From a virus: DNA of 64,000 nucleotides. Both the position numbers and the translations under genes were made by a program. Positions 11,451 through 33,147 of the stretch are shown piece after piece; position 1 is the first letter of the stretch, and each line of letters starts with the position of its first letter. Location: positions 32,001 through 96,000 of the IMG/VR virus record IMGVR_UViG_3300027896_000011; one strand, 5' to 3'. The notes beneath the pieces were generated by a model that saw nothing but the letters and a program-made list of their open reading frames with translations, made no database searches and was not told the DNA's origin.

Positions 11451-12292
11451 AGCACATTACTGAATTACATTTGGCTGGTATGCTAAGCGAGCTAAAAAAA
11501 GAAGCTGGTGTTGCATCAGATATTGCTTCACGTGGTCTTCAAATGCTTCGCAAGGTACCTACGTTACCACTTGTGAGTAGGATTCCTGGTATAAATTCTA
11601 GAGTAGGACAGACCCTTGCTGGCGGTGCATTAGGTGGTGCTATCGGTGCTGCTACTGGTGAAGAGGGCGATAGACTTCATAGAGGTGTAATGGGTGGGTT
11701 GTTAGGAGCAAGTGCTGTAGGTCTTGGGCACATGGCTACACAGAGTGGTAGAGATGCTGCAAAGAAATCTATGGGGAATTTATGGCAGAGGTCTAAATAC
11801 CAATTTACTGGTAAAGGTCTAGAAGGTACGCCGGAAGCTAGGATATTAAAGGCCAGAGAGATTGGTCTTATTCCTGAAGCAGGTAAAAATAAAGCTGTAG
11901 ATGCTGCACAAGAACATGCATTGAAAAATGATTGGTTATCATTACCTGGTGCGGTACATGGTCTAGTTACTCAACCCGGACAAGTATTAAAGAATTCTTG
12001 GAATAGAATGGATACAATGGGTAAAGGGCTTACTGCTGCAGGTGGAGCGATTACTGCCGCAGATATGATACAAAAGCCAACTCCAGAAGGTCCCGGTAGA
12101 TTAGAAAAGGGATTGGGTGGATTAGCTTCAACTATAGGCTTTACTGCAGGACCTGCAGGTATCTTACCGGGCATGTTGATGGGTAGTTGGGCAGGTAAGG
12201 CAGGACAAAGGGTTGGACGTGTGGGGGATAGATTGTTAGGGTACAACCCTGCAGCTGAGGCAGCGCCTATGTATGAAGGGGCTGTACAATGA
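11447..12292 (+). CDS. Glycine-zipper putative virion protein
   Basis: Start MKHITE overlaps the previous stop (ATGA); MLSELKKEA tag; GGALGGAIGAATG-type segments. Confidence 0.6.
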   Translation: MKHITELHLAGMLSELKKEAGVASDIASRGLQMLRKVPTLPLVSRIPGINSRVGQTLAGGALGGAIGAATGEEGDRLHRGVMGGLLGASAVGLGHMATQSGRDAAKKSMGNLWQRSKYQFTGKGLEGTPEARILKAREIGLIPEAGKNKAVDAAQEHALKNDWLSLPGAVHGLVTQPGQVLKNSWNRMDTMGKGLTAAGGAITAADMIQKPTPEGPGRLEKGLGGLASTIGFTAGPAGILPGMLMGSWAGKAGQRVGRVGDRLLGYNPAAEAAPMYEGAVQ

Positions 12293-15200: not shown

Positions 15201-18200
15201 TTCTTTTAGTCTTAATGCGGCTGAAGATTCCATCATGGGCGCTTTGGACTCTGCGCTACAAGGGATGGGGTTTGCTAGTGGGCACAGATACATACGAGAT
15301 AACTCCGCGCAGTACGATGTTGGTGATGTATTTTTGGGCAGCTTACTGCCTCAGCTGTGTGGCAAAGGTGCCCAAAATAAACGATTACCAAGGTTTATTG
15401 TTGAGGCTCCAGAAGAGATTGCGCTTCGTGCAGTAGAGGCAGTGTTTCTAGGTGATGGTTGTTCAATAAATAGTAAAACTCGTAGAGAAGGATTAAAGAC
15501 TGTCAGCCCTCAGTTAACTATAGACGTGCGTGCCATACTACTTTCTTTTGGTCTAATAGCTAATGTACAAAAGAGTATTCCTGGGGAGCACGAGATAGCT
15601 AAACTTCCGTACTACCAAGTCAATTTAAACGGATCACAGGGAGACGCCTTCGCTAACCTGTGTAGTAGCGGAACGCGTACACACAAAGGATTCAGTAGGT
15701 GTGGGTTTGTTCGTGGTGATTATGTCTATCTGCGGGTAAGTAAAAAATCAGAATCTCCAGATGTCAAAGTAGTACGTGGCTTCCAAATCAAAGGAGATAA
15801 GTCCTTCTGTATTGTTGGCGTAGCTACGCACAATACGAGCGTGAATCTTCAAGATTGGCACGATCAGATCGCAGGAGAATTACGTCGTTGGAGAAGCGAT
15901 AATTCGTATATTCCTATTCTTCCGTTACCTATTGGACAACAGACCATAGGTGGTGATGGTAGAGCTCTGCTTCTTTCACAAGAAATACGAGTATGGAGCG
16001 AACATATTATTGCGGGTATGGGTGTCCCAACGGAGCTCATTTTTGGTGGTCTCTCGTATTGTCAAGCTCCTGATACTCTCTTGTTTACGTCTCACGGTCT
16101 CGAGACATTAGAAGAGCTGACCCCAGCTGAAGAGGGGCAAGGGACATCAAATCGCAAAGTAGTAAGCCATATGGGCGTGAGAGACGTTGTTAGAACGCAT
16201 CACGTAGGTCTTAAAAAGGCAGCGTCGGCAAAAACTAGGCTTGGTCTGGAACTTACTGGAGCGTATACGCACCCCGTGTATGTACTACAGCCAGATTTAA
16301 CTATGGCATTTAAAACTATGGAGGAATTGAAGCCAGGAGATAGAGTGGCTGTAAAAGCGGGAGCTAACCTTTGGCCTAAGGACACACCTAAAATTGACTT
16401 TCATACGACAAAATCTGGAGACCGGTTTGAGGACGTTACTATCCCACAGGAGTTAACTCCAGAATTAGCCAGACTTTTGGGATATTTAATAGCAGAAGGT
16501 TCTTGTACTGAGGCGCGTAGAATTGGCTTTGGAAATTCTGATCAAGAAGTAAATACTGACTTTGCAGATTGCGTAGAGGCTGTGTTTGGATACCGTCCAA
16601 AGTTCCATCTAAATCTAAGTATGCCTGTAACCACCAAACCATTTTATCAGACTGAGATATCAAGGCAGCAGGCAACTGAGTTTCTCTACGCATTAGGTAT
16701 CGGTGGTTATGCTGCTGAAAAAACGGTACCTAGAATTATACGTCTTGCTCCTAAGCATCTTGTAGCAGAGTTTTTACGAGCTTATTTTGAAGGAGATGGC
16801 GGGTCAGAGGACGTAGAAGACAAACAAGCAGTTACCGCCTGTTCAATGTCGGGTAGACTCCTTCAAGAAATACAGCTATTGATGCTGAATATGGGTATTG
16901 TTACTTCTAGGTATTTCCCAAGAGTTAAGTCAACGTTCACACTACAAGCCAGGTCAGAGTATGTAGATATTTTTGCAAAAGAGATTGGGTTTATTTCCAG
17001 CTGTAAAAAAAGAATACTTTCACAGAGAACCCCTACTAGAGGATCTTCTTGTCTATCATCTCAAATTCCATATCTAAAAGAGAGATTAGAGGAGTTTAGA
17101 GATCGTCATTTTGAGAATAGGTCTTCGTGGAAGTTTGAATCTGTAAACGTTGAGTTGCTGCAGGAACAGTATACTGTTGATGAGATTGCAGTACTTACAA
17201 ACAGGGAACGCTCTACTATATTGCTGCACATTAATTCTGGAGCACTTACAGCGGTAAAGCAGCCATCTGTACAAGGTAGATTTGCTGCATATACTGTCAG
17301 TCGTCAAAATTTAGAATATTTTCTTAAACATCATGGTTTAGGTAGACGTAGAACAACACCAAAGAGTTTCTGGGGCATGAGCTATGAGAAGCTAGCTACT
17401 AAAGATCTTTCTTTTATTAAAGAAAAAGAGCCTGATTTTGCTCGGCGTATAGAAAATTTAGCTGAGATGCGTTTAATCTGGGATGAGGTACAGGAAGTAA
17501 ATCTTTTGGATATAGAAATTCCTATGCGTGATTTGACGGTGGATGAGGCTTCTACGTACCAAGGTAACGGTGTAATTAGCCATAATTCCGGATCAAATGT
17601 ATCTTTACGTATGCTTGAGAATATGTTCCTTGGTTATCTTTCCGATCAATTAGCTTTACTTCGTTGGATAATCGAAAAGACTGCCTCATACCTTGGTTGG
17701 GCTAAAGTAGGAGCTAGGTTCAAGCCATTTAAGATGGCAGATGATCTGCAGAGAAAGGCATATCTATTCCAGCTTAATCAAGCCGGAAAGATATCAGATG
17801 AGTCTCTTTGCTCTGATGCTGATTATGATTCATCTAAAGAAGATGCGATCATGGAGAACGAAGCTACTCGTCGCATAGGAGCGATGAAGAAGCAACGATT
17901 GCTTCAAGCAGAGATGGAAGGCGAAGCAGCTATGGTCCAGCAGAAGTGGCAGACCAAAGCACAGAATAAAGCTATGTCAGAACAAATGGCTATTCAAGGA
18001 GAAGCGGCTAAAGATCAAATGGCATTCCAATCTCAGATGCAAAATGGAATGATGCAAGATCAAATGGCTGTTCAAACAGGACAAGAAGCGCCACCTAAAA
18101 CTCCAGATATGATGCCTGCTCCTCGAGACCCATCGTTGTTATCTGTACCTAAGGGGATTACCTCTCCATTAACACTACAAAGTGTTCAACAGCATCCAGT

Positions 18201-18471
18201 TTCTGCGTCTAATGCAGATATAGCTGGTGGGCAAAATGTAGACCTGTTGTTTATGGCTAGAAAATTAGCTGATAAGTTTTCTAGACTTAACCCCGGAGAG
18301 AAACCAGTAATGTTAAGTAGGCTTAAAGAACTTAATCCTATACTGTATTCTACGGTTACAGGGCTAATGATGAGCGGAGGGAATGGACCCACCGCTGCAG
18401 CTCAAGCCTCTGCGAGGCCGTTGCCATTGCAACGAACACCCCGCAGAGGATCTGAAGCTGCTCAAATCTAG
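12289..18471 (+). CDS. Portal protein with three inteins (about 680 aa spliced)
   Basis: NPLINAVVAKMADYP, FYAYGNAL, IYHFKR...GWGTPLI, IIAGMGVP-ELIFG, coiled-coil C-terminus; all portal-like motifs. Confidence 0.8.
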   Translation: MSVGLGGADSSALRFSRTRGRTGASSDYGLQYPSPFFDIGQTYLPATIKQMFRWCRYYFLVNPLINAVVAKMADYPVTDIILDTDKPDLKEKWYHFLDSQLRYRPFQIELGLDFYAYGNALVSIFYPFIKMLRCKRCGHEKPAADATYRFQNFEFHWECSKCSHADIATVRDHYVKAPKGIRLLRWNPEDIDIRYNDITGDTEYYYTIPVQIKNDIIMGKKSTVETMPQLFIDALRLRKAVVFSRDNIYHFKRPTLAGKDRGWGTPLILPVLKDTYYLQVLRKAQECLTLSSLLERPFDLCKASEIRIGDLVKTHTGAYKRVTDIRPKLINEQNGGFTVQVATKAMKAFPTGYSDNHPLYVLRREELATGCRANKHINTKYVRRYTDEYAPKWVNAGDVKLGEYVVYPIDRLKNTSGEVLDISQYTGLPATTDWVYQQSSKETVDAYEALEQGDELPWADNAQHAAHTLHNRGKTPPRVKRYISLDEDLAYLSGWFIGDGSTGDRQISIALGLKDDYKLLAKAFKKVFGKEPKISKSKRFNGRLLVHSDVIATKFMRGWIPGDAHTKSLPKEIQQAPDQILLSFLRGYVEADGCFHNDLDRVTFTSVSPQLAYQVWKLLISLRCVARVSKRKESQSIIEDKLGRRNKAISGVSYDIVLDGSSGRRLRALLYGGEVEDAAGGHTGFFHGDYFASPICNWERLTEQHVLSFEVEDDHTFCTPGMVTHNSIALEHIVPLRVLFPQAGSASSDPYCVALDSLVETREGIFPAGEVKKGDWLKTHTGAWKPVEAAVDRKIRTGEKVYEFSIASLSAFPFKVSEEHPILAVKRPSRFRGYESLTEEPDYIEAKNIDEGDFVCYPKHRTVWDSLDLDLHEYCPERAFTAEYMYRRLDQQSADIYEYFEANGVPSFAHGERKTFLADKGWTEDYYNNAKAVFSQQEAVDRIPRYLPVTKDLAYVVGMYAAEGSQKDLGISFSLNAAEDSIMGALDSALQGMGFASGHRYIRDNSAQYDVGDVFLGSLLPQLCGKGAQNKRLPRFIVEAPEEIALRAVEAVFLGDGCSINSKTRREGLKTVSPQLTIDVRAILLSFGLIANVQKSIPGEHEIAKLPYYQVNLNGSQGDAFANLCSSGTRTHKGFSRCGFVRGDYVYLRVSKKSESPDVKVVRGFQIKGDKSFCIVGVATHNTSVNLQDWHDQIAGELRRWRSDNSYIPILPLPIGQQTIGGDGRALLLSQEIRVWSEHIIAGMGVPTELIFGGLSYCQAPDTLLFTSHGLETLEELTPAEEGQGTSNRKVVSHMGVRDVVRTHHVGLKKAASAKTRLGLELTGAYTHPVYVLQPDLTMAFKTMEELKPGDRVAVKAGANLWPKDTPKIDFHTTKSGDRFEDVTIPQELTPELARLLGYLIAEGSCTEARRIGFGNSDQEVNTDFADCVEAVFGYRPKFHLNLSMPVTTKPFYQTEISRQQATEFLYALGIGGYAAEKTVPRIIRLAPKHLVAEFLRAYFEGDGGSEDVEDKQAVTACSMSGRLLQEIQLLMLNMGIVTSRYFPRVKSTFTLQARSEYVDIFAKEIGFISSCKKRILSQRTPTRGSSCLSSQIPYLKERLEEFRDRHFENRSSWKFESVNVELLQEQYTVDEIAVLTNRERSTILLHINSGALTAVKQPSVQGRFAAYTVSRQNLEYFLKHHGLGRRRTTPKSFWGMSYEKLATKDLSFIKEKEPDFARRIENLAEMRLIWDEVQEVNLLDIEIPMRDLTVDEASTYQGNGVISHNSGSNVSLRMLENMFLGYLSDQLALLRWIIEKTASYLGWAKVGARFKPFKMADDLQRKAYLFQLNQAGKISDESLCSDADYDSSKEDAIMENEATRRIGAMKKQRLLQAEMEGEAAMVQQKWQTKAQNKAMSEQMAIQGEAAKDQMAFQSQMQNGMMQDQMAVQTGQEAPPKTPDMMPAPRDPSLLSVPKGITSPLTLQSVQQHPVSASNADIAGGQNVDLLFMARKLADKFSRLNPGEKPVMLSRLKELNPILYSTVTGLMMSGGNGPTAAAQASARPLPLQRTPRRGSEAAQI
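13147..14466 (+). mobile_element. Portal intein 1 (440 aa, LAGLIDADG)
   Basis: AQE|CLTLSS...LSGWFIGDG...FLRGYVEADG...THN|SIA. Confidence 0.92.
14542..15834 (+). mobile_element. Portal intein 2 (431 aa, LAGLIDADG)
   Basis: DPY|CVALDS...VVGMYAAEG...VFLGDG...THN|TSV. Confidence 0.92.
16060..17586 (+). mobile_element. Portal intein 3 (509 aa, LAGLIDADG plus HTH insert)
   Basis: LSY|CQAPDT...LLGYLIAEG...FLRAYFEGDG...SHN|SGS. Confidence 0.92.
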
Positions 18472-19448: not shown

Positions 19449-19583
19449 TCAATTTTCTTCGTTTCCTTCCTCTTTTTCTTCTTCTTCTTCTTCTTTGTTT
19501 TCGCCTCCAATTTCGTCTTCGAAACGATCTGACAGATCGCTCAAAGAATTCTCACTCTTCTCTTCTTCTTCTTCTGGTCGCAT
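19449..19583 (-). CDS. 44-aa hyper-acidic peptide
   Basis: Translated by hand: MRPEEEEEKSENSLSDLSDRFEDEIGGENKEEEEEEKEEGNEEN; RBS AAGGAGG; first ORF after promoter P2. Confidence 0.7.
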   Translation of the reverse strand: MRPEEEEEKSENSLSDLSDRFEDEIGGENKEEEEEEKEEGNEEN

Positions 19584-19628: not shown

Positions 19629-19658
19629 CTTATACCCTTAAGCGTCGTATAATTTCAT
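19629..19658 (-). promoter_or_regulatory. Phage-specific promoter P2
   Basis: ATGAAA-N18-TATAAG(TAT). Confidence 0.7.
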
Positions 19659-19718
19659 GCCCATATTCCTGTAATTCTGATACCTTAAGGACAACACACA
19701 TAAACAAGCGAGGAATTC

Positions 19719-22700
19719 TTGGCACGCATTGCACCGGAAGAGGGGTTTGAACTCCTCAAAGACCGAGTACAAAAAGCAGTCAGTGGATTCTTCCCCATAA
19801 TCGGGCGGAAGAATACGCTAGAGCTCCATGATATATCGGTTAAAGATAACCTGAATATCGATGATATTAGGTCCCAGAAACACGCTAAGTTGAGTGGTCG
19901 TTCCTGGACTGTACCAGTAGAGGCAACTATTGCCCTAAAGGACAATACTACTGGGTCGATAATCGATAAACAGAAGATGAACTTGCTTAACCTGCCTAAG
20001 GTTACAAGACGCTATGGCCATATCGTAGATGGCCAGGAGTATCAGATAGATAACCAGTGGCGCTTAAAGCCCGGTATCTATAACATGGTTAAACAAGACG
20101 GAGCTATTGAGTCTCACTTTAATGCGGCAGGAGGCTTTAAGATACATTTTGATCCAAAGTCTCGTCAATTTACATTGAACTATGGTAATTCTAATATGCC
20201 TCTTAGACCCTTCTTACACGCCATGGGGGTGTCTGAAGAGGAAGTAGAAAATCGTTGGGGTAAAGATATCGCTACGGTTAATCATGCTGATAGTTCTAAA
20301 GAACTTATTAAGTTTTATAGAGCATCCACTGGGGATAAGACCGTTAAGCCCACTATAGATGAGGCAAAGTCTCATTTGTGGGATGTAATGCAAAAGACGG
20401 TACTACGTCCGGAAGTAACTAAATTTACTCTAGGTAAAGAATATACAAACGTTACTGGGCATACGCTTTTAGATGCGTCAGATAAATTATTGAAGATATC
20501 TAGAGGCGAAGCGCAGCCAGACCCTAGAGACGCTTTGATGTTTAAAGATCTCCATTCAATTGAAGATTTTGCAGCAGAACGTCTTATTAAAGGTTCTAGA
20601 GAAATTCTTCGTAAAGTAAATAATAATATTGATCGTAAAGATAAAGTACGAGACATCATAGCTCCAGAAATATTTAATCGTCCGATCAAACAGATGTTTG
20701 GAAAGAATTCCTTAGCAATTGTTACTGATCAGACTAACCCGTTAGAGATGTTCTCCGCTAATATGAAGACCACCATTATGGGAGATGGTGGTATTAAATC
20801 AGAGCATACTGTTTCAGATGAGGCGAAACTTATAGATCCGTCTCATTTAGGATTTCTTGATCCAATACACACTCCCGAAGGATGTTACGATTCTGAGACA
20901 GAGGTCTACACAAAGACTGGCTGGAAGAAGTGGATAACCGTAACAGAGCAAGATCAATTAGCTTGTCGAGTAGACGGTAGATTAGAGTTTCACCTCCCTA
21001 CAAATCTGATCAATGCCCCATATAAGGGGAAAATGTATGGGGTAAATACCGCACGAAACAAGCAGCGTAGAAAGAGAGAAATTGATTATTTAGTAACGCC
21101 CAATCATAGAATCTACTGTCGTACTAGAGACCTCAGGGGAAAGGCCCTATTTCGTATAGAGACCGCAGACGTGGTGCACGGTAAAGCTAGAGACTTAGAA
21201 CTTGGGCATGACCCGTATCTAGGTTCCAAAGAAACGGGCGTATTTCATTTGCCTTACGTAAAGGGAAACAACTCTTCAAAGAACGTAGACGAGATCAACA
21301 TAGGTGACTGGGCTCAATTTATAGGGTGGTTCCTGTCTGAGGGGAATTGCACGTATGATGATGTAGGTTCCCACTATAGTGTCTGTATTTCACAGAGTAT
21401 AGTTACGTCTAGAACTAACTGCGAAATTATTGAGGCGCTGCTCGATAGGTTACCCTTTGCTTGGAGTTTTTCTGAAAGAGAAGATGGTAAACGCACCTAT
21501 CGGGTAAGTACAAAGCAGCTAGCGCATTATGTCTCTCAGTTTGGACTTAGTTACAATAAGTCCATACCAGAGTACTTTTTCGAATGTTCTGTGGAAACAC
21601 GAGAATATTTATTAGAAGCACTGCTGTTGGGGGATGGCAGGAAAAACTCACATAGGGCTACTGGCGCATCTTATAAACAGCTAGTATACTGCACAGTTAG
21701 TCCACAACTCGCTCTAGATGTGGAGCGCTTAGCAATAAGCTTGGGGCGTCCCGTATCTATGTGCCGGTATGCAGATGACCGAGAAGAGCGATATAGAGAC
21801 GTTTATGAGGTACGTTTACTGTGTCAAACAAAACGAGAAATTCAAGGCGCTAAAGGACACTTTTATACCTCTGAGTACGACGGCACTATTCACTGTGCAA
21901 CTGTTCCAGGAGGGCTACTGTACGTACGCAGGGGAACGGGGTTAGCACACTGGAGCGGTAATAGCGCCACAGGTATCACACTGCGTTTACCTTTAGGTGT
22001 ACATAAAATAGGGCATGATGTTGCTATTAAAATGTACAATACAAAAACTGGAAAAGTTGAAAACGTCAATCCTACTGTCGCTTATAAATCTCATATAGCT
22101 CTGCCAGATCAAATTACTTGGGAGGGCAATAAACCTAAAGCTGCTGGTAAAGTTGTAAAAATTAGTGGGCCGGGTAATGAAATATATGATGGTACGTTAA
22201 AAGATGCTGATTATGTAATGAAGAGTCCGATGCAGATGTTTTCCATCTCATCTAACATGATTCCTTTCATGCCGTCAGATCACCCTAATCGTAGTACCAT
22301 GGCCGGAAGACAGATGGAACAGGCTATCTCTCTAAAACATAGAGAAATCCCCTTAGTACAAAGCTTGGCCGGTAAAGAAAGTTTTGATCGTATACTTGGA
22401 AGCTTTGCCAGTCATAGCGCAACTGTTAGTGGTACAGTATCAAAGATAAAACCAGACGCTATAGTAATTAAGAGACCTAACGGTACTAAGGAAGAAGTGT
22501 TCATTTATGATCACTTTCCACTTAATGAAAATAAAGCGTTTATGCATGCAGAGCCTTTAGTAAAGGTCGGAGATAAAGTAACTAAAGGGCAAGTTATAGC
22601 TGATACAAATTACACTAAAGATGGCGTATTAGCTATAGGTACTAATTTACGTACAGGGTTTATGCCTTATAAAGGATATAACTTTGACGATGGTATTGTA

Positions 22701-25700
22701 GTCAGTGAGAGTGCAGCTCAAAAATTAACCAGTGAACATCTTCATAGACATTCATTAGAACGAGATGTATCTCACATTTTGGATAAGAAGAAATTTACGG
22801 CTTATATGCCTACTGTACTGAATAAAACTCAGTACGATAAATTAGATGAAGAAGGCGTAATCAAACCAGGCACTGTCGTAATGCCGGGAGATACTCTAAT
22901 AGCAGCATTACGTGCTTCAAATAATCCGGAACGTAAAGAAGATTTAGAACTTTCAAAGTTACATAAGTCTATTGTTAAACCATATAAAGACTCGAGTATT
23001 AAGTGGGAAAGCGATTACCCAGGAGTAGTTAAAGAAGTAGTTAAGATTGGTAAGAATGTTTCTGTACACGTAAAAACTGAAGAAGCCTTAGACATCGGAG
23101 ATAAGCTCTGTTACGACGAAAAGCACGAACTATTGACTACTCGTGGATGGGTTCCGGTAAAGGACGTAAAGGTATCTGATGAGGTGTGTTCACTCAACCC
23201 GGAGACTGACGCGATAGAGTACCTGTGCCCGGAGAAGACAGTCAGCTATGATTGTGTAGAGGATGATCTGTACGTCTTGGAGACTACACAAGTGTCTATG
23301 GCTGTCACCATGGAGCACAAAACATATGCAAAGCCTAGGGGAGCGGATAGGCACAGCCTAATTCCAGTCTCTCAGTTAGTAGGTAAGCGTTATCATTTAA
23401 AGCAGCACGGTAAATGGGTGGGGGAAGACAGAGAGACATTTGAGTTCCCCTCTATGGTAGTCAAGGCTGGGCAGAGTGGTAATGGTACCAGAGTGCTGCC
23501 ATCAATACAGATGCCGATGGACACATTCTTAATGCTTCTAGGAATGTACTTGTCGGAGGGCAACAATTATGGTGGTAACGGCGACTACTACATAGAAATC
23601 ACTCAAATAAAGCAACCAGGAAGAGCTCAGACAGAGGAGGCTCTGGCATTAGCAGGAATACGTTTTACGCGTACTCCTGAAAAGATACGCATACACGGTA
23701 AGCAGCTGTATGAGTATTTCGTGCAGTTTGGGCATGCGGTAAATAAATTTATTCCTGATTGGATTTTTCAGCTTCCGAAAAAACGGTTACAGGTTCTGTA
23801 TAAATGGTTAATGTGGGGGGATGGCTGTGAAAAAGGAACCACACACGTATACACCACTATATCCCCTCAGCTAGCCGATGATGTACAGCGTTTAGTTTTC
23901 CATCTTGGTAAGGCAGGCAGAGTGGTGTGGGAGCCTGGTTATCGTGGCCAGATAGAGGGCAGGTATTACGATTTTAAGCCTAGATATAGAGTTAGGGTAA
24001 TACGCACTAAATTAGAGCCCACAATAAATCACGGGCACTCTAATTCACAAGGCGGACAAAAAGAAACTATAGAGAAGTACACCGGTAAGGTGTACTGCGT
24101 GGCTCTTCCACGTAATCACGTACTCTACACACGTCGAAATGGTAAATGCCACTGGTCTGGTAATACGGCGCGCCACGGCAATAAAGGCATAGTGACACGG
24201 ATCATACCTGATCATGACATGCCCCATACTAAAGATGGTAAGCATTTAGAGGTGTTGTTAAACCCGTTAAGTGTTATGGGTAGAACTAACTTAGGTCAAG
24301 TATTAGAGGTTGCTGCAGCCAAAGTGGCGGAGAAGACTGGTAAACCTTATATGGTTAAGAACTTTTCTCCGAATACAGATTTACATGCCCAAGTCACTGC
24401 TGACTTAGCCAAGCACGGTTTGACGGATAAAGAAGAAGTTATAGACCCCGTTACAAATAGAGTAATGGGTAATGTGCTTGTAGGACCTATGCACATTTTT
24501 AAGCTCCACCATCAGGTGGAAAAGAAGCTTAGTGCTCGAGCAGGTGGTTATGGGTATGACTACGATAAAGATATGATTCCTAAAGGTGGTGGCCCACGAG
24601 GAGCCAAGTCTCTCGGAACACTAGGCCTTTATTCTATGCTGGCGCATGGAGCGACATCTAATCTGCGGGAAATGCAGACTTATAAAAGCGATGCGTCACA
24701 AGGTGATCAATTCTGGTCTGCTCTCCAAGCTGGAGAGATGCTTCCTACTCCTAAGCCGACCTTTGCTTACAATAAATTTCTTGGGTACATCAGAGGACTT
24801 GGTGTAAATGTTCAGAAAACAGGTAATAACCTTACGCTTATGCCTATGACTGACAAGCAGATCATAGAACAAAGCAATGGTGAGATTACCGACCCCGCTA
24901 AGTCAGTCACAGCTAAAAATATGAAGCCTGAAATAGGGGGATTATTTGATCCTAAAGTTACAGGTGGTATTGATGGTACAAAATGGGGCTTTTACACACT
25001 CCCAGAATCTATGCCTAACCCCGTATTCGAAAGTGCTATTACTCGTTTGTTGGGAATGAAGCAAAAAGAGTTTGCAGGCTTAATTGGTGGTACGTTAGCA
25101 GTAGACCCAAAAACCGGAAAGATAGGAGATTCTCAAAAAATTGAGGGAGGGCTGGTTGGTGGTAAAGCCTTTGCTCATATGCTTAGTAAAATAGATGTGA
25201 AAAAGGATTTAGCTGCTGCCAAAGTAGCGCTAGATAAACCGACATTAAGAGGGACGTATCTTGATCATGCTAATAGTAAAGTAAAACTACTAGAGGCTTT
25301 AAACAAGGTTGGTATGACGCCAGTAGAAGCGTACATGTCTAAAGTCATTCCTATATTACCGCCATCTATGCGACCTGTTCCAGTGTTGCCTAATGGTACT
25401 ATTAGTGAAGAAGATTTGAACGGTCTTTATAAGAATCTTCATTTGTCTGCGTCTAGATACGCGAAGATGTCTCCATTGATTCCAGAAGATGATCAATCTA
25501 AAGTAGAGATTCGACAAGAAGTCTATGATGGTTTACGAGCAATAGCTGGACTTGGTGGTTACCCACATCAAATTCGTAGAGGAATCTTAGACTACATACA
25601 TGGTAAGAAGATGGACACTCGTACGGATGCTAAGATAGGTTCTCCTAAAGAAGGATTCTTTCAAGATAAATTGGTTGAACGTAAGCAAGATATGTCTATG

Positions 25701-28025
25701 CGTGGAACTATTATCCCTGAACCATCTTTAGGTCTGGATGAAGTAGGTCTCCCAAGAGAAGCAGCGATTGAAGTATATAAGCCATTTGTAATTCGTGAAT
25801 TACGAAATCTATTGGGAATACCGCCTTTACAGGCGCAAAAAAAATTGGCGGAAGGTGGGGAGATAGTAGACCGTGCTTTACAAAAAGTTATATCTACTAG
25901 GCCTATTTTGCTTAAACGTGATCCGGTACTACATAAGTACGGGGTACAAGCGTTTAAGCCACGTATAGTTGGTGGTAAAGCTGTACAGGTTCACCCTCTA
26001 GTTACCAGTGGTTTTAACGCAGACTTTGATGGCGATGCAATGGGTGCTTTCGTACCTGTAAGTATGGATGCTGTAGCAGAAGCATATAAAATGCTTCCAT
26101 CTAGGAACCTATTCAGTCCGTCTAGCGGGGAGATCATGTATGCTCCCACTAACGAGAGCAGATTAGGTCTATATGGTATTACTCAGACTGGTAAAGATAC
26201 TAATCATAAGTTCACTAATATGCAGGACTTAGAGACTGCTATTAGAACAGGCGCAGTAACCTTTACAGATCAAGTAACCGTTGGCGGTATTAAATCAAGC
26301 GCTGGTAAGTTTATGGTTGCTGGAGCCCTTCCAGAAACTATGCGTAGAGAAATATTAGAACGAAAAACACCTCTAGATAAAAAAGCACAAGAAGAACTCT
26401 TTACTCAAGTAGCTAGAGAACACAAGAATGATTATGGTGAAGTAGCTAATAAGCTAAAAGATCTGGGCAATAAGTGGGCTACAGACACTGCCTTCTCTTT
26501 CGGTATGACAGATATTGCGCCGGAACGACAAGTAAGAGATAGGATTCTTGCTGCTGCAGATGCTCAAGTTCATAAACTCACTGGGGCAAATAAAGATAGT
26601 AAAAAGATAGACATATACTCCAAGGCAACGGAGGAAATGAATAAGCATTTGAAGGCAACTCCTGAAAGCCAAAACAACATTATGATTCTACATAATGTGG
26701 GCATGAAAGGAGGCACGGATACTTTGAGACAAATACGTGCTACTCCTATGCTTATGAGTAATCATAAAGGAGAAATCCTCCCTAATCCTATCCGCAAATC
26801 TTATGCCGAAGGATTGGATGTTGCAGACTACTGGACGGCTATTAGTGGTGGTCGTAAAGGTATTATTCAGAAAGTTCAATCTGTTGCCGAACCTGGTTAT
26901 ATCAGCAAACAGGTAATGAACTCTGTTATGAATAACCTTATCTTAGATCATGATTGTGGTACTGATAAAGGCATCTCTTTGCCGGTAGATGAAAAAGATA
27001 TTTTAGGTAGATTTACTGCTGCGGATATTAATGTAGGCGGACATGTAATAAAATCTGGTGCATTAATTACCCCAGAAATGCGTAGTACGCTACGTAATAA
27101 TAATATTGGTAAAGTAGTAGTCAGGTCTCCTTTGCGTTGTTTACATGGTCCTGGTCTTTGCCAGAAATGCAACGGATTAACGGAGAATGGAGAATTACCA
27201 GCAAAAGGTTTGAACGTAGGTGTATTAGCTGGTCAAGCATTAGGAGAACGTAGCGTACAGTTGGCTATGAAGGCTTTCCATAGTGGAGGTAGCGCTGCTT
27301 CAAGGAGTGGTTTAGTTGATGATTTTGAACGTGTAAAAAATCTACTATCATTCCCGAAAATACTTCCTGGTTCTGCTACGCTTAGTGAGTTGAATGGTAA
27401 GGTAACAAAAATAGCTCCCTCACCTGCTGGTGGTCATGAAGTAAGCATAGAAGACAAAGTACACTATATTCCTCACGCGTTAGGGGCTCCTGTATACAAT
27501 GGACAACCTTTAAAAGTTGGTACGGAAGTAAAAAAGGGGAGTCCTATCTCTAACGGATTGATAAACCCTCATGAGATGTTAACGCTTACAGGAGTAGAGC
27601 CAGTACAACTTCATCTCGCTAGTGAGCTAAGTAATGCTTATGCAGATTCCGGAATCCGTAGAAGAAATCATGAAATTGTAGTTAAAGCACTAACTAATCT
27701 CACTAAGGTCAAAGACCCTGGCTCTTCATCCGGACTTATCCGTGGTGATTTTGCTTCTACAACATATGTATCTAACATTAATAGAAACATGCCAAAAGGC
27801 TCTAGACCTATAGTACATGAGCCCATACTTAAAGGCGTTAATGTGCTACCTTTGGAAATGCAAGAAGACTGGATTGCAAAACTTAATCATGAGAATCTAT
27901 CGGAAACCATTATAGATGCAGCTCAAAGAGGATGGACTAGTAGCTTACATGGACTACATCCTATTCCAGCTGTAATTTATGGAGCTGAGATTGGATTACC
28001 CGGTAAAGGAAAGGTCGGATATTAA
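19719..28025 (+). CDS. rpoBC: DNA-directed RNA polymerase, beta and beta' fused in one polypeptide, two inteins (about 2056 aa spliced)
   Basis: Beta motifs DQTNPL, HTPEG, GYNFDDGI, GDKL/TARHGNKG, LNPLSV. Beta' motifs GGLFD, PILPPSMRP, KRDPVLH, catalytic NADFDGD (26016-26036), DCGT, RSPLRC..CQKC, QLAMKAFHSGG. No stop between the halves. Confidence 0.95.
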   Translation: MARIAPEEGFELLKDRVQKAVSGFFPIIGRKNTLELHDISVKDNLNIDDIRSQKHAKLSGRSWTVPVEATIALKDNTTGSIIDKQKMNLLNLPKVTRRYGHIVDGQEYQIDNQWRLKPGIYNMVKQDGAIESHFNAAGGFKIHFDPKSRQFTLNYGNSNMPLRPFLHAMGVSEEEVENRWGKDIATVNHADSSKELIKFYRASTGDKTVKPTIDEAKSHLWDVMQKTVLRPEVTKFTLGKEYTNVTGHTLLDASDKLLKISRGEAQPDPRDALMFKDLHSIEDFAAERLIKGSREILRKVNNNIDRKDKVRDIIAPEIFNRPIKQMFGKNSLAIVTDQTNPLEMFSANMKTTIMGDGGIKSEHTVSDEAKLIDPSHLGFLDPIHTPEGCYDSETEVYTKTGWKKWITVTEQDQLACRVDGRLEFHLPTNLINAPYKGKMYGVNTARNKQRRKREIDYLVTPNHRIYCRTRDLRGKALFRIETADVVHGKARDLELGHDPYLGSKETGVFHLPYVKGNNSSKNVDEINIGDWAQFIGWFLSEGNCTYDDVGSHYSVCISQSIVTSRTNCEIIEALLDRLPFAWSFSEREDGKRTYRVSTKQLAHYVSQFGLSYNKSIPEYFFECSVETREYLLEALLLGDGRKNSHRATGASYKQLVYCTVSPQLALDVERLAISLGRPVSMCRYADDREERYRDVYEVRLLCQTKREIQGAKGHFYTSEYDGTIHCATVPGGLLYVRRGTGLAHWSGNSATGITLRLPLGVHKIGHDVAIKMYNTKTGKVENVNPTVAYKSHIALPDQITWEGNKPKAAGKVVKISGPGNEIYDGTLKDADYVMKSPMQMFSISSNMIPFMPSDHPNRSTMAGRQMEQAISLKHREIPLVQSLAGKESFDRILGSFASHSATVSGTVSKIKPDAIVIKRPNGTKEEVFIYDHFPLNENKAFMHAEPLVKVGDKVTKGQVIADTNYTKDGVLAIGTNLRTGFMPYKGYNFDDGIVVSESAAQKLTSEHLHRHSLERDVSHILDKKKFTAYMPTVLNKTQYDKLDEEGVIKPGTVVMPGDTLIAALRASNNPERKEDLELSKLHKSIVKPYKDSSIKWESDYPGVVKEVVKIGKNVSVHVKTEEALDIGDKLCYDEKHELLTTRGWVPVKDVKVSDEVCSLNPETDAIEYLCPEKTVSYDCVEDDLYVLETTQVSMAVTMEHKTYAKPRGADRHSLIPVSQLVGKRYHLKQHGKWVGEDRETFEFPSMVVKAGQSGNGTRVLPSIQMPMDTFLMLLGMYLSEGNNYGGNGDYYIEITQIKQPGRAQTEEALALAGIRFTRTPEKIRIHGKQLYEYFVQFGHAVNKFIPDWIFQLPKKRLQVLYKWLMWGDGCEKGTTHVYTTISPQLADDVQRLVFHLGKAGRVVWEPGYRGQIEGRYYDFKPRYRVRVIRTKLEPTINHGHSNSQGGQKETIEKYTGKVYCVALPRNHVLYTRRNGKCHWSGNTARHGNKGIVTRIIPDHDMPHTKDGKHLEVLLNPLSVMGRTNLGQVLEVAAAKVAEKTGKPYMVKNFSPNTDLHAQVTADLAKHGLTDKEEVIDPVTNRVMGNVLVGPMHIFKLHHQVEKKLSARAGGYGYDYDKDMIPKGGGPRGAKSLGTLGLYSMLAHGATSNLREMQTYKSDASQGDQFWSALQAGEMLPTPKPTFAYNKFLGYIRGLGVNVQKTGNNLTLMPMTDKQIIEQSNGEITDPAKSVTAKNMKPEIGGLFDPKVTGGIDGTKWGFYTLPESMPNPVFESAITRLLGMKQKEFAGLIGGTLAVDPKTGKIGDSQKIEGGLVGGKAFAHMLSKIDVKKDLAAAKVALDKPTLRGTYLDHANSKVKLLEALNKVGMTPVEAYMSKVIPILPPSMRPVPVLPNGTISEEDLNGLYKNLHLSASRYAKMSPLIPEDDQSKVEIRQEVYDGLRAIAGLGGYPHQIRRGILDYIHGKKMDTRTDAKIGSPKEGFFQDKLVERKQDMSMRGTIIPEPSLGLDEVGLPREAAIEVYKPFVIRELRNLLGIPPLQAQKKLAEGGEIVDRALQKVISTRPILLKRDPVLHKYGVQAFKPRIVGGKAVQVHPLVTSGFNADFDGDAMGAFVPVSMDAVAEAYKMLPSRNLFSPSSGEIMYAPTNESRLGLYGITQTGKDTNHKFTNMQDLETAIRTGAVTFTDQVTVGGIKSSAGKFMVAGALPETMRREILERKTPLDKKAQEELFTQVAREHKNDYGEVANKLKDLGNKWATDTAFSFGMTDIAPERQVRDRILAAADAQVHKLTGANKDSKKIDIYSKATEEMNKHLKATPESQNNIMILHNVGMKGGTDTLRQIRATPMLMSNHKGEILPNPIRKSYAEGLDVADYWTAISGGRKGIIQKVQSVAEPGYISKQVMNSVMNNLILDHDCGTDKGISLPVDEKDILGRFTAADINVGGHVIKSGALITPEMRSTLRNNNIGKVVVRSPLRCLHGPGLCQKCNGLTENGELPAKGLNVGVLAGQALGERSVQLAMKAFHSGGSAASRSGLVDDFERVKNLLSFPKILPGSATLSELNGKVTKIAPSPAGGHEVSIEDKVHYIPHALGAPVYNGQPLKVGTEVKKGSPISNGLINPHEMLTLTGVEPVQLHLASELSNAYADSGIRRRNHEIVVKALTNLTKVKDPGSSSGLIRGDFASTTYVSNINRNMPKGSRPIVHEPILKGVNVLPLEMQEDWIAKLNHENLSETIIDAAQRGWTSSLHGLHPIPAVIYGAEIGLPGKGKVGY
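20883..21962 (+). mobile_element. RNAP intein A (360 aa, LAGLIDADG)
   Basis: TPEG|CYDSET...VTPNH...IGWFLSEG...LLLGDG...HWSGN|SAT. Confidence 0.9.
23109..24164 (+). mobile_element. RNAP intein B (352 aa, LAGLIDADG)
   Basis: GDKL|CYDEKH...VTMEH...LGMYLSEG...LMWGDG...HWSGN|TARHGNKG. Confidence 0.9.
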
Positions 28026-29227
28026 TGGGGTCAACGTTTCATAACTCTGTAACAACTACCGGAAACAGAGCTCCAAGACTTGAAACAGGTATAGTGTCTA
28101 GCGTCAACCCACAGAACATGACACTAGATTGGGTGGCCCAACATACCGGAAAACAACAAGCTGGGGTTCAAATTATGACCCCTTATATTCATTATAATAA
28201 CGGCGAGGGCTTTACCTGTTTGCCAGAGCCAGGTGCTGTTTGTGTTTTATGTTGGCCCTCAGATGAAGAATCTCCCTTTGTTATGGGGTTTATTACCCCA
28301 CCAGAATCGGCCCCAGCTAATGCCGGTAGTACAGATAAAAGTGCTTCTCCACCTGTAGTTAAAACTGCTTCATCTACTGGAGCTGCAACACCAGCATTAT
28401 CAGACGCTAGCTATAGGTGCAATAGACCTGTCTTGAATCCAGGAGATATGCTGTGGCAAGGTAGAGATGAGAATTTTATAGCTTTGCGTAGGGGTGGTGT
28501 TCTTCAGATAGGTTCTACCAACATTTGTCAACGGGTGTATATTCCTGTTGGAAATTATATTAGAGATTTTTGTGAAAATTGGGAGGTGAATACTGCTGCA
28601 GGTTCTATGAGCTGGGTAGTGCACCCTTCTGAAAGTACCCCGGAAAGTAATGCTCCTACAGAATTCTCTCTTATAGTCAGAGAATATGCTCAAGATAAAA
28701 TGGCCTCTATTAAGGTAAGTGTAGGTTCTTTATTCAATGAACCTAAGTTGCCTAGCGGAGTAGATTCTTTTTTAGAGATTATTATTGCTCCAGATAACAT
28801 TGATCCAAAAGATGGAACTGTATCGAGTCCCTTGTACACACTACGTATAGGTAAAGATGGTAGTACTGAAACAATTCAGGCTGATCGAAAAGTAACTATC
28901 AACGGTAAAGATAATCTAGACGTTGAAGGAGATCAAACTATCTATGTAAAAGGGGATAGAGCATTGACTGTAGATGGCGCAATTACAGAAGCAGTCAAAG
29001 GTGCATATAGCATCACCGGAGAAAAAGGAAGTGCAGAGATTTGGCATGAGGTTAAGTCAATAGATGCTGCTGCCGTGAAACTAGGTTCAGCAAGCGCTTC
29101 CGAGCCAGCTGTTCTTGGATTACAATTATTAAATTGGCTCGCAACGCATACGCATGTGCCTAATGGACCACCTACAAGTTCCCCCACATTATCTAGTATT
29201 CTTGCCAAGAAAACTTATGTAGCGTAA
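28025..29227 (+). CDS. Baseplate central spike (gp5/GpV/VgrG-like)
   Basis: N-terminal OB-fold with LPEPGAVCVL; beta-helix repeats (VTINGKDNLDVEGDQTIYVKGDRALTVDG); C-terminal HTH metal-tip motif LATHTH. Confidence 0.75.
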   Translation: MGSTFHNSVTTTGNRAPRLETGIVSSVNPQNMTLDWVAQHTGKQQAGVQIMTPYIHYNNGEGFTCLPEPGAVCVLCWPSDEESPFVMGFITPPESAPANAGSTDKSASPPVVKTASSTGAATPALSDASYRCNRPVLNPGDMLWQGRDENFIALRRGGVLQIGSTNICQRVYIPVGNYIRDFCENWEVNTAAGSMSWVVHPSESTPESNAPTEFSLIVREYAQDKMASIKVSVGSLFNEPKLPSGVDSFLEIIIAPDNIDPKDGTVSSPLYTLRIGKDGSTETIQADRKVTINGKDNLDVEGDQTIYVKGDRALTVDGAITEAVKGAYSITGEKGSAEIWHEVKSIDAAAVKLGSASASEPAVLGLQLLNWLATHTHVPNGPPTSSPTLSSILAKKTYVA

Positions 29228-32992: not shown

Positions 32993-33113
32993 GTTGAAAC
33001 CGGCTAACGCCGGTCAACCAACTTTGATTAAGGGTCTGTATGCGAACAACACATAACAGACCCTACCAAGTTGGCAGAGTGACAAATTGAGATTAAGATC
33101 TCCCTTTTGTCAC
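32993..33113 (-). ncRNA. Putative structured small RNA
   Basis: Three adjacent hairpins, no ORF, directly downstream of promoter P3. Confidence 0.5.
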
Positions 33114-33117
33114 AATA

Positions 33118-33147
33118 CTTATACCACAATGTGGTAAGATTTTACAT
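33118..33147 (-). promoter_or_regulatory. Phage-specific promoter P3
   Basis: ATGTAA-N18-TATAAG(TAT); the -35 box overlaps the terminase ATG on the opposite strand. Confidence 0.65.

What the first reader, a model, noticed from the sequence alone, without database searches (positions are those of the whole stretch)
19719..28025. Single-chain, reduced beta-beta' RNA polymerase embedded in the virion gene module
Seen: one ORF carries collinear bacterial beta and beta' motifs. The join is seamless near 24800-24850 (beta end IRGLGVNVQKT, then beta' start LTLMPMTDKQI). The spliced length is about 2056 aa versus 2749 for E. coli beta plus beta'. It lies between the portal and spike genes and is coupled to the spike gene (TAATG). 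No alpha, omega or sigma gene is visible in the window. Known: phiKZ-like phages split beta/beta' into pieces, and crAss-like single-chain enzymes are far more divergent; this one stays clearly bacterial-like. Inference: a virion-packaged or late-expressed, possibly alpha-independent RNAP of a distinct phage lineage.
Basis: partly seen in the sequence, partly recalled or inferred. Interest (0 to 1): 0.85.

Follow-up and report, generated by a model that had tools for sequence, protein, structure and literature searches.

The report
Single-chain phage RNA polymerase with inteins
A large uncultured freshwater-type phage encodes both big subunits of a bacterial-type RNA polymerase as one protein, interrupted by two self-splicing inteins; it belongs to a very large phage family that I found described in no paper, has its own sigma factor, and is probably carried in the virus particle.

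Summary
Window 19719-28025 (+) is one 2768-codon ORF. Two LAGLIDADG inteins (aa 389-748 and 1131-1482) interrupt it, and removing them leaves a 2056-aa collinear beta-beta' fusion. The fusion is not an assembly artefact. More than 150 clusters at 50% identity share the ~2050-aa layout, and 16 or more contigs share the order portal, RNAP, spike, two ORFs, TerL.

In a beta' tree the family, together with Salmonella phage Arash and Vibrio phage D181, forms one clade. All 24 sampled bacterial beta' sequences lie on the other side of a well-supported branch. Identity to any bacterium is only 25-29%.

The catalytic elements, the clamp helices, the flap tip and the second zinc site are kept. The beta' N-terminal zinc ribbon is deleted. 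The rifampicin pocket has diverged.

No alpha or omega gene is found in this record or in the complete Arash and D181 genomes. A sigma70-family gene does exist, about 68 kb beyond the window's end, and it is homologous to Arash Gp10.

Virion packaging rests only on Arash proteomics and gene position. Independence from alpha is untested. This scan has already met the family on at least seven other genomes. New in this window are the two inteins and the finding that about half of the sampled family carries intein-sized insertions.

The parts
19719..28025 (+). Fused beta-beta' RNA polymerase gene. The precursor has 2768 aa. After splicing it has 2056 aa, about 225 kDa and pI 9.15.
   Evidence: ORF list and translation; Pfam domains in order; PDB matches; spliced length and properties
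19710..19714 (+). GAGGA ribosome-binding site, 4 nt before the TTG start codon
   Evidence: Sequence read directly
20883..21962 (+). Intein 1, 360 aa. It has Cys1, a TxxH block and two LAGLIDADG motifs, ends in SGN, and is followed by Ser at +1. It is inserted after HTPEG, which equals E. coli beta G566|P567 in the fork region.
   Evidence: Boundaries and motifs; absent from the intein-free 2055-aa homologue P0004; the same site is occupied in 18 of 225 family members
23109..24164 (+). Intein 2, 352 aa. It has Cys1, a TxxH block and a LAGLIDADG motif, ends in SGN, and is followed by Thr at +1. It is inserted in GDKL|TARHGNKG, which equals E. coli beta M1066|A1067 in the active-site lysine motif.
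   Evidence: 29% identical to intein 1 (E 3e-25); about 30 members have an insert at or near this site (spliced aa ~771-808), among them the 88%-identical P0003
24807..24845 (+). Beta/beta' junction (NVQKT|GNNLTLMP). The end of beta runs straight into beta' at about E. coli residue 19.
   Evidence: the same junction is found in Arash Gp206 and in the D181 CDS
24960..24968 (+). Point where the beta' N-terminal zinc ribbon (E. coli beta' 64-95, Cys70/72/85/88) is deleted
   Evidence: Alignment with E. coli and Bacillus beta'; the deletion is shared by the family and by Arash
25431..25520 (+). Beta' clamp helices (aa 1905-1934), the predicted docking site for the phage sigma factor
   Evidence: Alignment; interface residues in the complex model
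26016..26036 (+). NADFDGD catalytic magnesium-binding motif (aa 2100-2106)
26955..27170 (+). Second zinc site: Cys2413, 2474, 2481 and 2484, equal to E. coli beta' C814/C888/C895/C898. These are the only four cysteines in the spliced protein.
   Evidence: nearly invariant across the family alignment
12289..18471 (+). Portal gene interrupted by three intein-sized insertions
   Evidence: 29% identical to Arash portal Gp204 in four collinear blocks; Pfam LAGLIDADG_3 (2 stretches) and Intein_splicing above cut-off, Hint_2 below it
19449..19583 (-). Small, very acidic 44-codon ORF transcribed divergently from the RNAP gene. A 43-aa gene is called at the same place in the close relative.
   Evidence: Sequence read directly; gene call in L112
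19629..19657 (-). Phage-specific promoter-like motif, TGAAAT-N14-GGTATAAG, pointing away from the RNAP gene
   Evidence: K-mer enrichment and Markov controls: 14 strict hits in the genome against 0-2 in controls
28025..29227 (+). Candidate gp5-like central spike gene, coupled to the RNAP gene by a TAATG overlap
   Evidence: Weak Gp5_trimer_C and Gp5_C matches (Pfam) and phrog_430; overlap; position conserved
33107..36223 (+). Large terminase gene carrying one LAGLIDADG intein. It closes the conserved block that starts at the portal gene.

Best explanation
This is the catalytic core of a phage-encoded, bacterial-type RNA polymerase, made as a single chain. The gene is translated as a 2768-aa precursor. 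Two LAGLIDADG inteins sit in the fork region and in the active-site lysine motif of the beta part, so they must splice out before the enzyme can work. Splicing gives a 2056-aa, 225-kDa beta-beta' protein. The following steps are inferred, not shown. The core pairs with the phage's own 254-aa sigma70-family factor through the usual sigma region 2 / clamp-helix contact. It needs no phage-encoded alpha or omega. It is resistant to rifampicin. It is made late together with the head and packaging genes, is packed into the virion, and is injected. In the next cell it transcribes early genes from the phage-specific promoters of the form TGAAA(A/T)T-N14-16-GGTATAAG.
For: Gene and fusion. One ORF holds all beta and beta' Pfam domains in order and matches bacterial beta and beta' at E 1e-34 and 1e-99. 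The same ~2050-aa layout is found in more than 100 clusters at 90% identity. All 150 listed representatives at 50% identity belong to the family (E <= 1e-179); most are full-length fusions, some are fragments. Arash and D181 share the junction.

Likely activity. NADFDGD, the bridge helix, the trigger-loop FH, beta GDK...RHGNKG and beta FDDG are conserved. The inteins have Cys1, TxxH, LAGLIDADG, a terminal Asn and Ser or Thr at +1. An intein-free relative is 81% identical.

Lineage. In the tree, bacteria form one side of a branch (support 99) and the family plus Arash and D181 form a clade (support 100). The best bacterial identity is 25-29%.

Sigma. A sigma70-family gene in the same record reaches Sigma70_r3 above the Pfam cut-off and phrog_351 at 1e-16. 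It is 36% identical to Arash Gp10 and matches SigA regions 2.3-3.1. It is present on 3 of 5 related partial contigs, and several sigma and RNAP hits share the same longest-contig lengths.

Complex model of beta' aa 1703-2060 with sigma. The score is 0.78 and the best of 3 controls is 0.00. That mark was reached by 58 of 80 solved complexes and by 2 of 110 mismatched pairs; these counts hold only roughly because my own alignments were used. The runs agree in at least 49% of contacts, and the partner's pLDDT is at least 69. The interface is the clamp helices against sigma residues 40-115. Sigma-core complexes have been solved, so this pass may reflect likeness to them and does not show binding.

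Alpha and omega. There are no PF01000, PF01193 or PF01192 matches in this record. There are no PF01000 or PF01192 matches in complete Arash and D181. The controls matched in 14 of 14 genomes.

Packaging. Arash Gp206 gave the most spectra in the virion proteome, and Gp216 and sigma Gp10 were also found (PMC10585845). The order portal, RNAP, spike, two ORFs, TerL is kept across 16 or more contigs at 34-92% identity.

Promoters. The two-block motif occurs 14 times against 0-2 in Markov controls, mostly before minus-strand non-structural genes. It is absent before the RNAP and sigma genes.

Rifampicin. Cluster I is diverged (H526A, S531T, Q513I in E. coli numbering).
Against: There is no direct evidence for packaging, activity or sigma pairing in this phage. 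The Arash proteome listed 116 of 272 proteins, among them ribonucleotide reductases, ligases and kinases, and its authors allow for carry-over of abundant proteins. Spectrum counts also favour large proteins. The record is only 89% complete by CheckV, so a divergent alpha-like scaffold could be missed, and host alpha and omega could be recruited. The phage sigma could instead redirect the host RNAP, as phage sigmas do in phages without an RNAP (review PMC13282480). The complex model cannot tell these two cases apart. No promoter was identified for the RNAP gene itself. Both inteins end in Gly-Asn rather than the usual His-Asn, and splicing is untested. The tree has no outgroup, few Gracilicutes and long phage branches.
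Confidence: 0.6

Rival explanations
1. The same enzyme is not packaged. It is made inside the infected cell and transcribes middle or late genes only, while host RNAP starts the infection.
For: Sigma70-like TTGACA-N17/18 promoters can be read before some + strand operons, for example at window 8196 and 37405. The Arash authors themselves allow that abundant enzymes contaminate the virion preparation. The phiKZ and AR9 phages do have non-virion RNAPs.
Against: Only one beta-type gene exists in the record. It lies in the head and packaging block, translationally coupled to a structural gene. That is a late position, and an odd one for an enzyme needed before late genes. Gp206 was the top protein in the Arash virion data.
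Confidence: 0.22
2. The fused core is a hybrid enzyme that still needs host alpha (and perhaps omega) for assembly, and the phage sigma mainly reprograms the host RNAP rather than the phage core.
For: The protein keeps the overall bacterial beta and beta' architecture. The fusion removes only the need to join beta to beta'. From my own knowledge, not tested here, cellular rpoBC fusions (Helicobacter) still use alpha. Phage sigmas usually act on host core.
Against: No relative encodes alpha. Other phage multisubunit RNAPs work without alpha or omega. Identity to bacterial subunits is only 25-29%. The sigma gene travels with the fused core across the family and docks on its diverged clamp helices in the model.
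Confidence: 0.15
3. The gene is an artefact, a captured cellular rpoBC, or a dead gene disabled by its inteins.
For: The record is metagenomic. Two inteins sit in essential motifs, and both lack the penultimate His.
Against: An identical protein is found on a second contig of 187 kb, and an 88%-identical one is in GenBank record LR796294.1. Synteny holds in 16 or more contigs. The exteins are conserved and free of stops. Intein motifs are intact. No GTDB species genome among the best 80 matches exceeds 29% identity.
Confidence: 0.03

Closest known systems
RNA polymerase of Salmonella phage Arash (Gp206 + Gp216, sigma Gp10; OQ632216, PMC10585845) and of Vibrio phages D69/D148/D181
   Same: They share the beta/beta' junction, the zinc-ribbon deletion and the portal-RNAP neighbourhood. 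They have a homologous sigma (36% identity). They fall in the same clade of the beta' tree with support 100.
   Different: Identity is only 31-34%. The cultured phages split beta' after the catalytic barrel, at about aa 2190 here. D181 also splits beta around a homing-endonuclease gene. The window's enzyme is one uninterrupted chain apart from its two inteins. The Arash paper annotates the pieces as 'beta' and 'beta prime' and does not remark on the fusion.
mReC phages (Weinheimer and Aylward 2020, PMC7481178) and cultured phages with separate bacterial-like beta and beta' genes (Rhizobium RHph_TM30, Cobetia Carin-5, Vibrio Va2)
   Same: These are tailed phages with beta and beta' recognisable by cellular COG or Pfam models, branching apart from cellular enzymes. 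Carin-5 also has a sigma gene next to its RNAP genes.
   Different: Every row I read in two parts of the paper's Supplementary Data 2 lists two separate proteins, so the fused ~2050-aa form does not appear there. RHph_TM30, Va2 and Carin-5 form a separate group in my tree and their genes lie in replication modules. I could not test the relation to the metagenomic mReC sequences themselves.
phiKZ / AR9-type virion and non-virion multisubunit RNAPs
   Same: They are phage-encoded two-barrel enzymes without alpha or omega, and one set is packaged and injected.
   Different: Those enzymes are split into four or five polypeptides, have no sigma70 homologue and are far more divergent. AR9 nvRNAP 7s00 matches the window's beta only at E 7e-5, against 1e-34 for bacterial beta.
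Cellular rpoBC fusions (Helicobacter and Wolbachia, from my own knowledge; a Paceibacterota MAG seen here)
   Same: Beta and beta' are joined head to tail in one ORF.
   Different: The Paceibacterota fusion (about 2280 aa) groups with other bacterial beta' in the tree. The phage family is a separate clade in a virion-gene context.
Single-chain two-barrel phage RNAPs (crAss-like phi14:2 gp66, YonO, P23-45 tape-measure-fused RNAP)
   Same: Both barrels are in one polypeptide, and some of these enzymes are delivered by the virion.
   Different: Those enzymes lack most beta and beta' accessory domains and are not detected by the cellular beta and beta' models. The window's protein matches six Pfam RNAP domains.

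Membership tests
Bacterial-type multisubunit RNAP core (beta + beta') | Beta' double-psi barrel with the NADFDGD magnesium site, bridge helix and trigger loop | tested here: met
   NADFDGD at aa 2100-2106. The bridge helix and trigger loop (QLAMKAFHSGG) align with E. coli and Bacillus. Pfam Rpb1_2, Rpb1_3 and Rpb1_5 are above cut-off.
Bacterial-type multisubunit RNAP core (beta + beta') | Beta barrel with GDK...RHGNKG lysines, the FEDS/FDDG loop, and fork and flap domains | tested here: met
   Alignment with E. coli beta after intein removal. Pfam Rpb2_6 at 175 bits and Rpb2_3 at 28 bits.
Bacterial-type multisubunit RNAP core (beta + beta') | Beta' N-terminal zinc ribbon (Cys70/72/85/88 in E. 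coli) | tested here: not met
   A clean 32-residue deletion, shared by all aligned family members and by Arash.
Bacterial-type multisubunit RNAP core (beta + beta') | Second zinc site (Cys814/888/895/898 in E. coli) | tested here: met
   All four Cys are present, and they are the only Cys in the spliced protein.
Bacterial-type multisubunit RNAP core (beta + beta') | Assembly on an alpha dimer, with omega | tested here: inconclusive
   No alpha or omega gene in this record, in Arash or in D181. Use of host alpha and omega cannot be tested with these tools.
Bacterial-type multisubunit RNAP core (beta + beta') | Promoter recognition through a sigma70-family factor bound to the clamp helices and flap tip | tested here: inconclusive
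   A sigma70-family gene is present in the genome. The clamp helices and flap tip are retained. The complex model scores 0.78 against a best control of 0.00, but this is a textbook pair and may score from memory.
Arash / D181-type phage RNAP lineage | Shared beta-beta' junction, zinc-ribbon deletion, portal neighbourhood and monophyly | tested here: met
Arash / D181-type phage RNAP lineage | Beta' split into two genes after the catalytic barrel | tested here: not met
   The window's protein is continuous through aa 2189-2194, where Gp206 ends and Gp216 begins.
phiKZ / AR9-type phage multisubunit RNAP | Beta and beta' each split into two or more polypeptides, with no sigma70 homologue | tested here: not met
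   Single chain, sigma present, and only a marginal sequence match to AR9 nvRNAP.
mReC (Weinheimer and Aylward 2020) | Separate beta and beta' genes forming the published mReC clade | tested here: inconclusive
   The supplement rows I read list only separate subunits. The mReC sequences themselves were not available for a joint tree.
Canonical inteins with LAGLIDADG homing endonuclease | N-terminal Cys/Ser, a TxxH block, LAGLIDADG motifs, a terminal Asn and a nucleophile at +1 | tested here: met
   Both inteins carry all of these. The penultimate residue is Gly, not His. Precise excision is implied by the intein-free homologue P0004. Splicing itself was not tested.

The most novel reading that the evidence does not exclude
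The family could be a self-contained, minimal bacterial-type transcription machine: one ~225-kDa beta-beta' chain plus one ~29-kDa sigma70-family factor, working without alpha, omega or the beta' zinc ribbon, stored in the virion and injected with the DNA. That would make it the simplest known sigma-dependent relative of the cellular RNAP, and the first phage RNAP shown to combine a cellular-type core with a true sigma factor.
Probability: 0.35. Interest if true: 0.85.

Novelty: new variant of a known kind. Interest (0 to 1): 0.7.

Why it matters
Reviews as recent as 2026 describe two kinds of phage. One kind carries its own split, sigma-less multisubunit RNAP. The other carries a sigma factor and borrows the host enzyme. 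This family has both a cellular-type core and a sigma70-family factor, in a single-chain form. It appears in none of the papers I could search, even though it is very common in metagenomes and present in cultured phages (Arash, D181).

If the enzyme works without alpha and omega, it would be a compact model for sigma-dependent initiation. It would also show directly what the alpha scaffold and the beta' zinc ribbon are needed for.

About half of the sampled members carry intein-sized insertions, at 10 or more conserved sites. That makes the family a rich natural set for studying intein homing in phages. The enzyme's deep, separate branch also bears on the debate over the origin of viral RNAPs.

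Tried and rejected
There is therefore no read-level or RNA evidence.
- I looked for a second promoter class, in particular one in front of the RNAP gene. TTATATTT was mildly enriched, but its contexts share nothing. Upstream of the gene there is only a lone TATAAT (19648-19653) without a -35 element, and the consensus scan found nothing there.
- I asked whether the N-terminal FELLK helix is a capsid-targeting tag of the kind noted elsewhere on this genome. It aligns with the conserved N-terminal helix of bacterial beta, so I dropped the idea.
The alignment shows only a short variable loop there. I could draw no conclusion.
- Three intergenic gaps of exactly 714 nt turned up in my crude gene call. 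They are unrelated in sequence (about 27% identity) and are a coincidence or an artefact of the caller.
- Arash Gp217 helicase, Gp205, Gp218, Gp199, Gp198c and Gp4 have no tblastn match in this record. Only sigma, TerL and part of Gp8 do.
- I did not run structure prediction or fold search. The sequence matches to solved bacterial RNAPs are already decisive, and these tools cannot inspect surfaces.
- The inteins might be allelic with the eukaryotic and NCLDV RPB2 inteins in the fork and hybrid-binding domains (PMC1635734). The paper's text gives no site sequences, so I could not test this.
Full report
**The observation**

Window 19719-28025 (+) is a single ORF of 2768 codons. It starts at a TTG that lies 4 nt after a GAGGA ribosome-binding site at 19710-19714.

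Pfam finds beta domains (Rpb2_3, Rpb2_6) followed by beta' domains (Rpb1_1, Rpb1_2, Rpb1_3, Rpb1_5), in collinear order. Sequence searches of the PDB return bacterial beta (E 1e-34 for the middle extein) and bacterial beta' (E 1e-99) as best matches. [quoted passage not shown]

Two inserts interrupt the beta part:
- aa 389-748 (nt 20883-21962)
- aa 1131-1482 (nt 23109-24164)

Each begins with Cys, has a TxxH block and LAGLIDADG motifs, ends in Ser-Gly-Asn, and is followed by Ser or Thr. The product is about 225 kDa with pI 9.15. The junction NVQKT|GNNLTLMP lies at aa 1697-1709, about nt 24807-24845. The TAATG overlap with the next gene is at 28023-28027. E. coli beta plus beta' is 1342 + 1407 = 2749 aa.

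**Not an artefact**

The window is part of a 167,997-bp IMG/VR virus record that CheckV rates 89% complete. An identical protein lies on another contig of 187 kb. An 88%-identical one, with one intein and 2409 aa, is in GenBank record LR796294.1, an 'uncultured Caudovirales phage' of 188 kb.

More than 100 clusters at 90% identity have the same fused layout, typically 2045-2075 aa when free of inteins. In the library of 50%-identity representatives, all 150 listed hits belong to the family (E <= 1e-179). Most are full-length fusions and some are fragments.

The gene order orf10599, orf11390, portal, RNAP, spike, orf29476, orf31579, TerL is kept in 16 or more IMG/VR contigs whose RNAP is 34-82% identical. 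The portal-RNAP neighbourhood extends to two cultured phages.

**Neighbours**

The upstream 2060-aa ORF (12289-18471) is the portal. It matches Arash portal Gp204 in four collinear blocks (29% identity, E 7e-45) separated by three intein-sized insertions. Pfam supports inteins there (LAGLIDADG_3, 2 stretches, and Intein_splicing above cut-off; Hint_2 below cut-off). TerL (33107-36223) carries one more intein. In the close relative LR796294.1 both the portal (680 aa) and TerL (606 aa) are intein-free. The downstream 400-aa ORF has only weak gp5-type spike matches, so 'spike' is plausible but not firm.

**Cultured relatives**

Salmonella phage Arash Gp206 (1525 aa, annotated 'beta') aligns with the whole beta part and with beta' up to about aa 2189. 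It has the same junction sequence (34% identity). Gp216 (606 aa) aligns from aa 2194 to the end. Vibrio phage D181 has the same junction inside a 1006-aa CDS and the same split in beta'. The fusion of beta to beta' is therefore old in this lineage, and the cultured members have an additional break within beta'.

**Phylogeny**

A scan of one genome for each of 185,579 prokaryote species found only ordinary rpoC genes among the best 80 matches. They are 25-29% identical and come from many phyla.

I built a beta' tree of 43 rows with IQ-TREE (LG+C20+F+G4 PMSF, quick search):
- All 24 bacterial sequences lie on one side of a branch (SH-aLRT 99).
- The fused family plus Arash and D181 form one clade (support 100, stem length 1.53).
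- Rhizobium phage RHph_TM30, Vibrio phage Va2 and Cobetia phage Carin-5, which have separate beta and beta' genes in replication modules, form a third group.

There are caveats. The tree has no outgroup, few Gracilicutes and long phage branches, and the search was quick. It shows separateness from the sampled bacteria. It does not show the age of the lineage.

A search among shorter proteins shows a clear drop from family members (33% identity or more) to cellular beta' (32% or less). It also turned up a few candidate unfused relatives on long contigs, for example a 1069-aa beta' at 37% identity.

**What is kept and what is lost**

I aligned the spliced protein with E. coli and Bacillus subunits.

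Most of the missing length is E. coli-lineage insertions that compact bacterial enzymes also lack. These are beta 229-350 and 938-1049 and beta' 944-1130.

The deletion that the aligned Bacillus beta' does not share is the beta' N-terminal zinc ribbon (E. coli 64-95). It is cleanly removed in every family member aligned and in Arash. Shorter losses, which I did not check against compact bacterial enzymes, are the first ~28 residues and residues 390-416 and 1123-1176 of beta, the last ~40 residues of beta', and part of the rudder.

Elements that are kept:
- NADFDGD, the bridge helix and the trigger loop
- beta GDK...RHGNKG and FDDG
- the clamp helices and the flap tip
- all four cysteines of the second zinc site

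Those four are the only cysteines in 2056 residues.

Rifampicin cluster I has diverged at positions that give resistance in bacteria (H526A, S531T, Q513I in E. coli numbering). I therefore predict insensitivity to rifampicin. This is an inference.

**Partners**

No alpha (PF01000, PF01193) or omega (PF01192) match exists in this record. No PF01000 or PF01192 match exists in the complete Arash and D181 genomes or in the related partial contigs searched. The same searches matched all 14 control genomes.

A sigma gene does exist. It is a 254-aa ORF at G000:C1:163568-164332, about 68 kb beyond the window's end.
- It scores above the Pfam cut-off for Sigma70_r3 and hits phrog_351 at 1e-16.
- It aligns with regions 2.3-3.1 of primary sigma factors.
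- It is 36% identical to Arash Gp10 (E 6e-32).
- Homologues are present on 3 of 5 related partial contigs.
- Many sigma homologues share longest-contig lengths with fused RNAP genes (188,432; 120,109; 127,264; 109,973; 137,433; 108,145; 99,929 bp).

I modelled beta' aa 1703-2060 together with this sigma.
- The score was 0.78, and the best of three controls was 0.00.
- That mark was reached by 58 of 80 solved complexes and by 2 of 110 mismatched pairs. These counts hold only roughly because I supplied my own alignments.
- The runs agree in at least 49% of contacts, and the partner's pLDDT is at least 69.
- The interface is the clamp helices (aa 1905-1934) against sigma residues 40-115, which is the canonical contact.

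Because sigma-core complexes have been solved, this pass shows likeness to them. It does not show that this pair binds, and it cannot exclude that the sigma acts on host core.

**Promoters**

K-mer enrichment in upstream regions singled out GGTATAAG. It occurs 28 times in the genome, 13 of them upstream of genes. With a second block it reads [TG][GC]AAA(A/T)(T)-N14-16-GGTATAAG. That form occurs 14 times, against 0-2 in ten Markov-shuffled genomes. It stands mostly before minus-strand, non-structural genes. In the window, strict two-block hits are at 8098, 19629, 36677 and 62664.

One copy, at 19629-19657 (-), points away from the RNAP gene toward a 44-codon acidic ORF. Neither the RNAP gene nor the sigma gene has the motif. 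This fits a picture in which the RNAP and sigma genes are late and the motif marks the genes that the enzyme reads. It does not prove that picture.

**Virion packaging**

The only experimental evidence is the Arash structural proteome. Gp206 gave the most spectra (3516), Gp216 gave 1210 and sigma Gp10 gave 467 (PMC10585845). That list holds 116 of 272 proteins, including ribonucleotide reductases, ligases and kinases. The authors allow for carry-over, and large proteins collect more spectra.

Three things make packaging the most likely reading, and I put it at about 55-60%. The gene has a conserved place inside the portal-to-terminase block. It is coupled to a structural gene. It is the only RNAP in the record.

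**Inteins across the family**

I compared 225 family members of at least 1900 aa with the spliced protein. Of these, 106 carry at least one intein-sized insertion, at 10 or more sites. The sites include the window's two: about 388 (n = 18), and 771-808 (n = 30), which lies at or just after the window's second site at spliced aa 770. The most frequently occupied site is about 1384-1410 (n = 55), at or just after the NADFDGD motif (spliced aa 1388-1394). The longest precursors reach 3990-4739 aa. The window's two inteins are 29% identical to each other.

**Literature**

The mReC paper (PMC7481178) describes tailed phages with bacterial-like beta and beta'. Every row I read in two parts of its Supplementary Data 2 lists two separate proteins. 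The jumbo-phage comparative paper (PMC7824862) and a 2026 review (PMC13282480) describe split, sigma-less phage RNAPs, and phages with a sigma but no RNAP. Neither mentions this combination. Four further searches found no description of the fused family.

This scan has already reported the family on at least seven other genomes. My results agree with those reports. They add the inteins, the family-wide insert map and the E. coli-numbered domain map.

**Verdict**

The finding is real and is a member of a large family that I found described in no paper. I class it as a new variant of a known kind (phage-encoded multisubunit-type RNAPs). The fusion, the lineage, the zinc-ribbon loss, the own sigma gene and the lack of alpha and omega genes are shown. 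Sigma pairing, packaging, independence from alpha, rifampicin resistance and intein splicing are inferred.

Noticed in passing
window 12289-18471, 33107-36223 and 19719-28025: This phage is unusually rich in inteins. The portal has three intein-sized insertions, TerL has one intein and the RNAP has two. In the close relative LR796294.1 the portal (680 aa) and TerL (606 aa) have none and the RNAP has one.
   Followed up: partly
window 8098-8125(-), 19629-19657(-), 36677-36705(-), 62664-62693(-); GGTATAAG alone at 33118(-), 59482(+), 60402(+): A phage-specific two-block promoter-like motif, [TG][GC]AAA(A/T)(T)-N14-16-GGTATAAG. It has 14 strict copies in the 168-kb record against 0-2 in Markov controls, mostly before minus-strand non-structural genes.
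   Followed up: partly
L058:163-7017 (Candidatus Paceibacterota MAG, DATJQA010000074.1): A cellular single-ORF rpoBC fusion of about 2280 aa. Beta and beta' lie in one frame with no stop between them. Its beta' groups with Saccharibacteria among the bacteria in the tree, so the fusion is independent of the phage one.
   Followed up: partly
window 19449-19583(-): A 44-codon, extremely acidic (Glu-rich) ORF with a strong ribosome-binding site, directly downstream of a GGTATAAG promoter and divergent from the RNAP gene. A 43-aa gene is called at the same place in the close relative. Its function is unknown.
   Followed up: no
G000:C1:159935-160546 and 163568-164332 (outside the window): The sigma gene lies about 3 kb from a homologue of Arash Gp8 (cell-wall hydrolase and structural protein). 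In Arash, Gp8 and sigma Gp10 are also near neighbours, so the sigma gene too sits among virion genes in both phages.
   Followed up: partly
L040 (MAG labelled uncultured Alistipes): Its rpoC groups tightly with a Bacillota (Neglectibacter) sequence in the tree (support 100), and the protein is only 1244 aa. This suggests a misbinned contig.
   Followed up: no
P0408 and P0439 (metagenomic proteins; contigs of 115 and 177 kb): These are candidate relatives with a different split. One is a stand-alone 1069-aa beta' (37% identity). The other is a 1173-aa protein with beta domains plus the start of beta'. The fusion state appears to vary in the wider clade.
   Followed up: no
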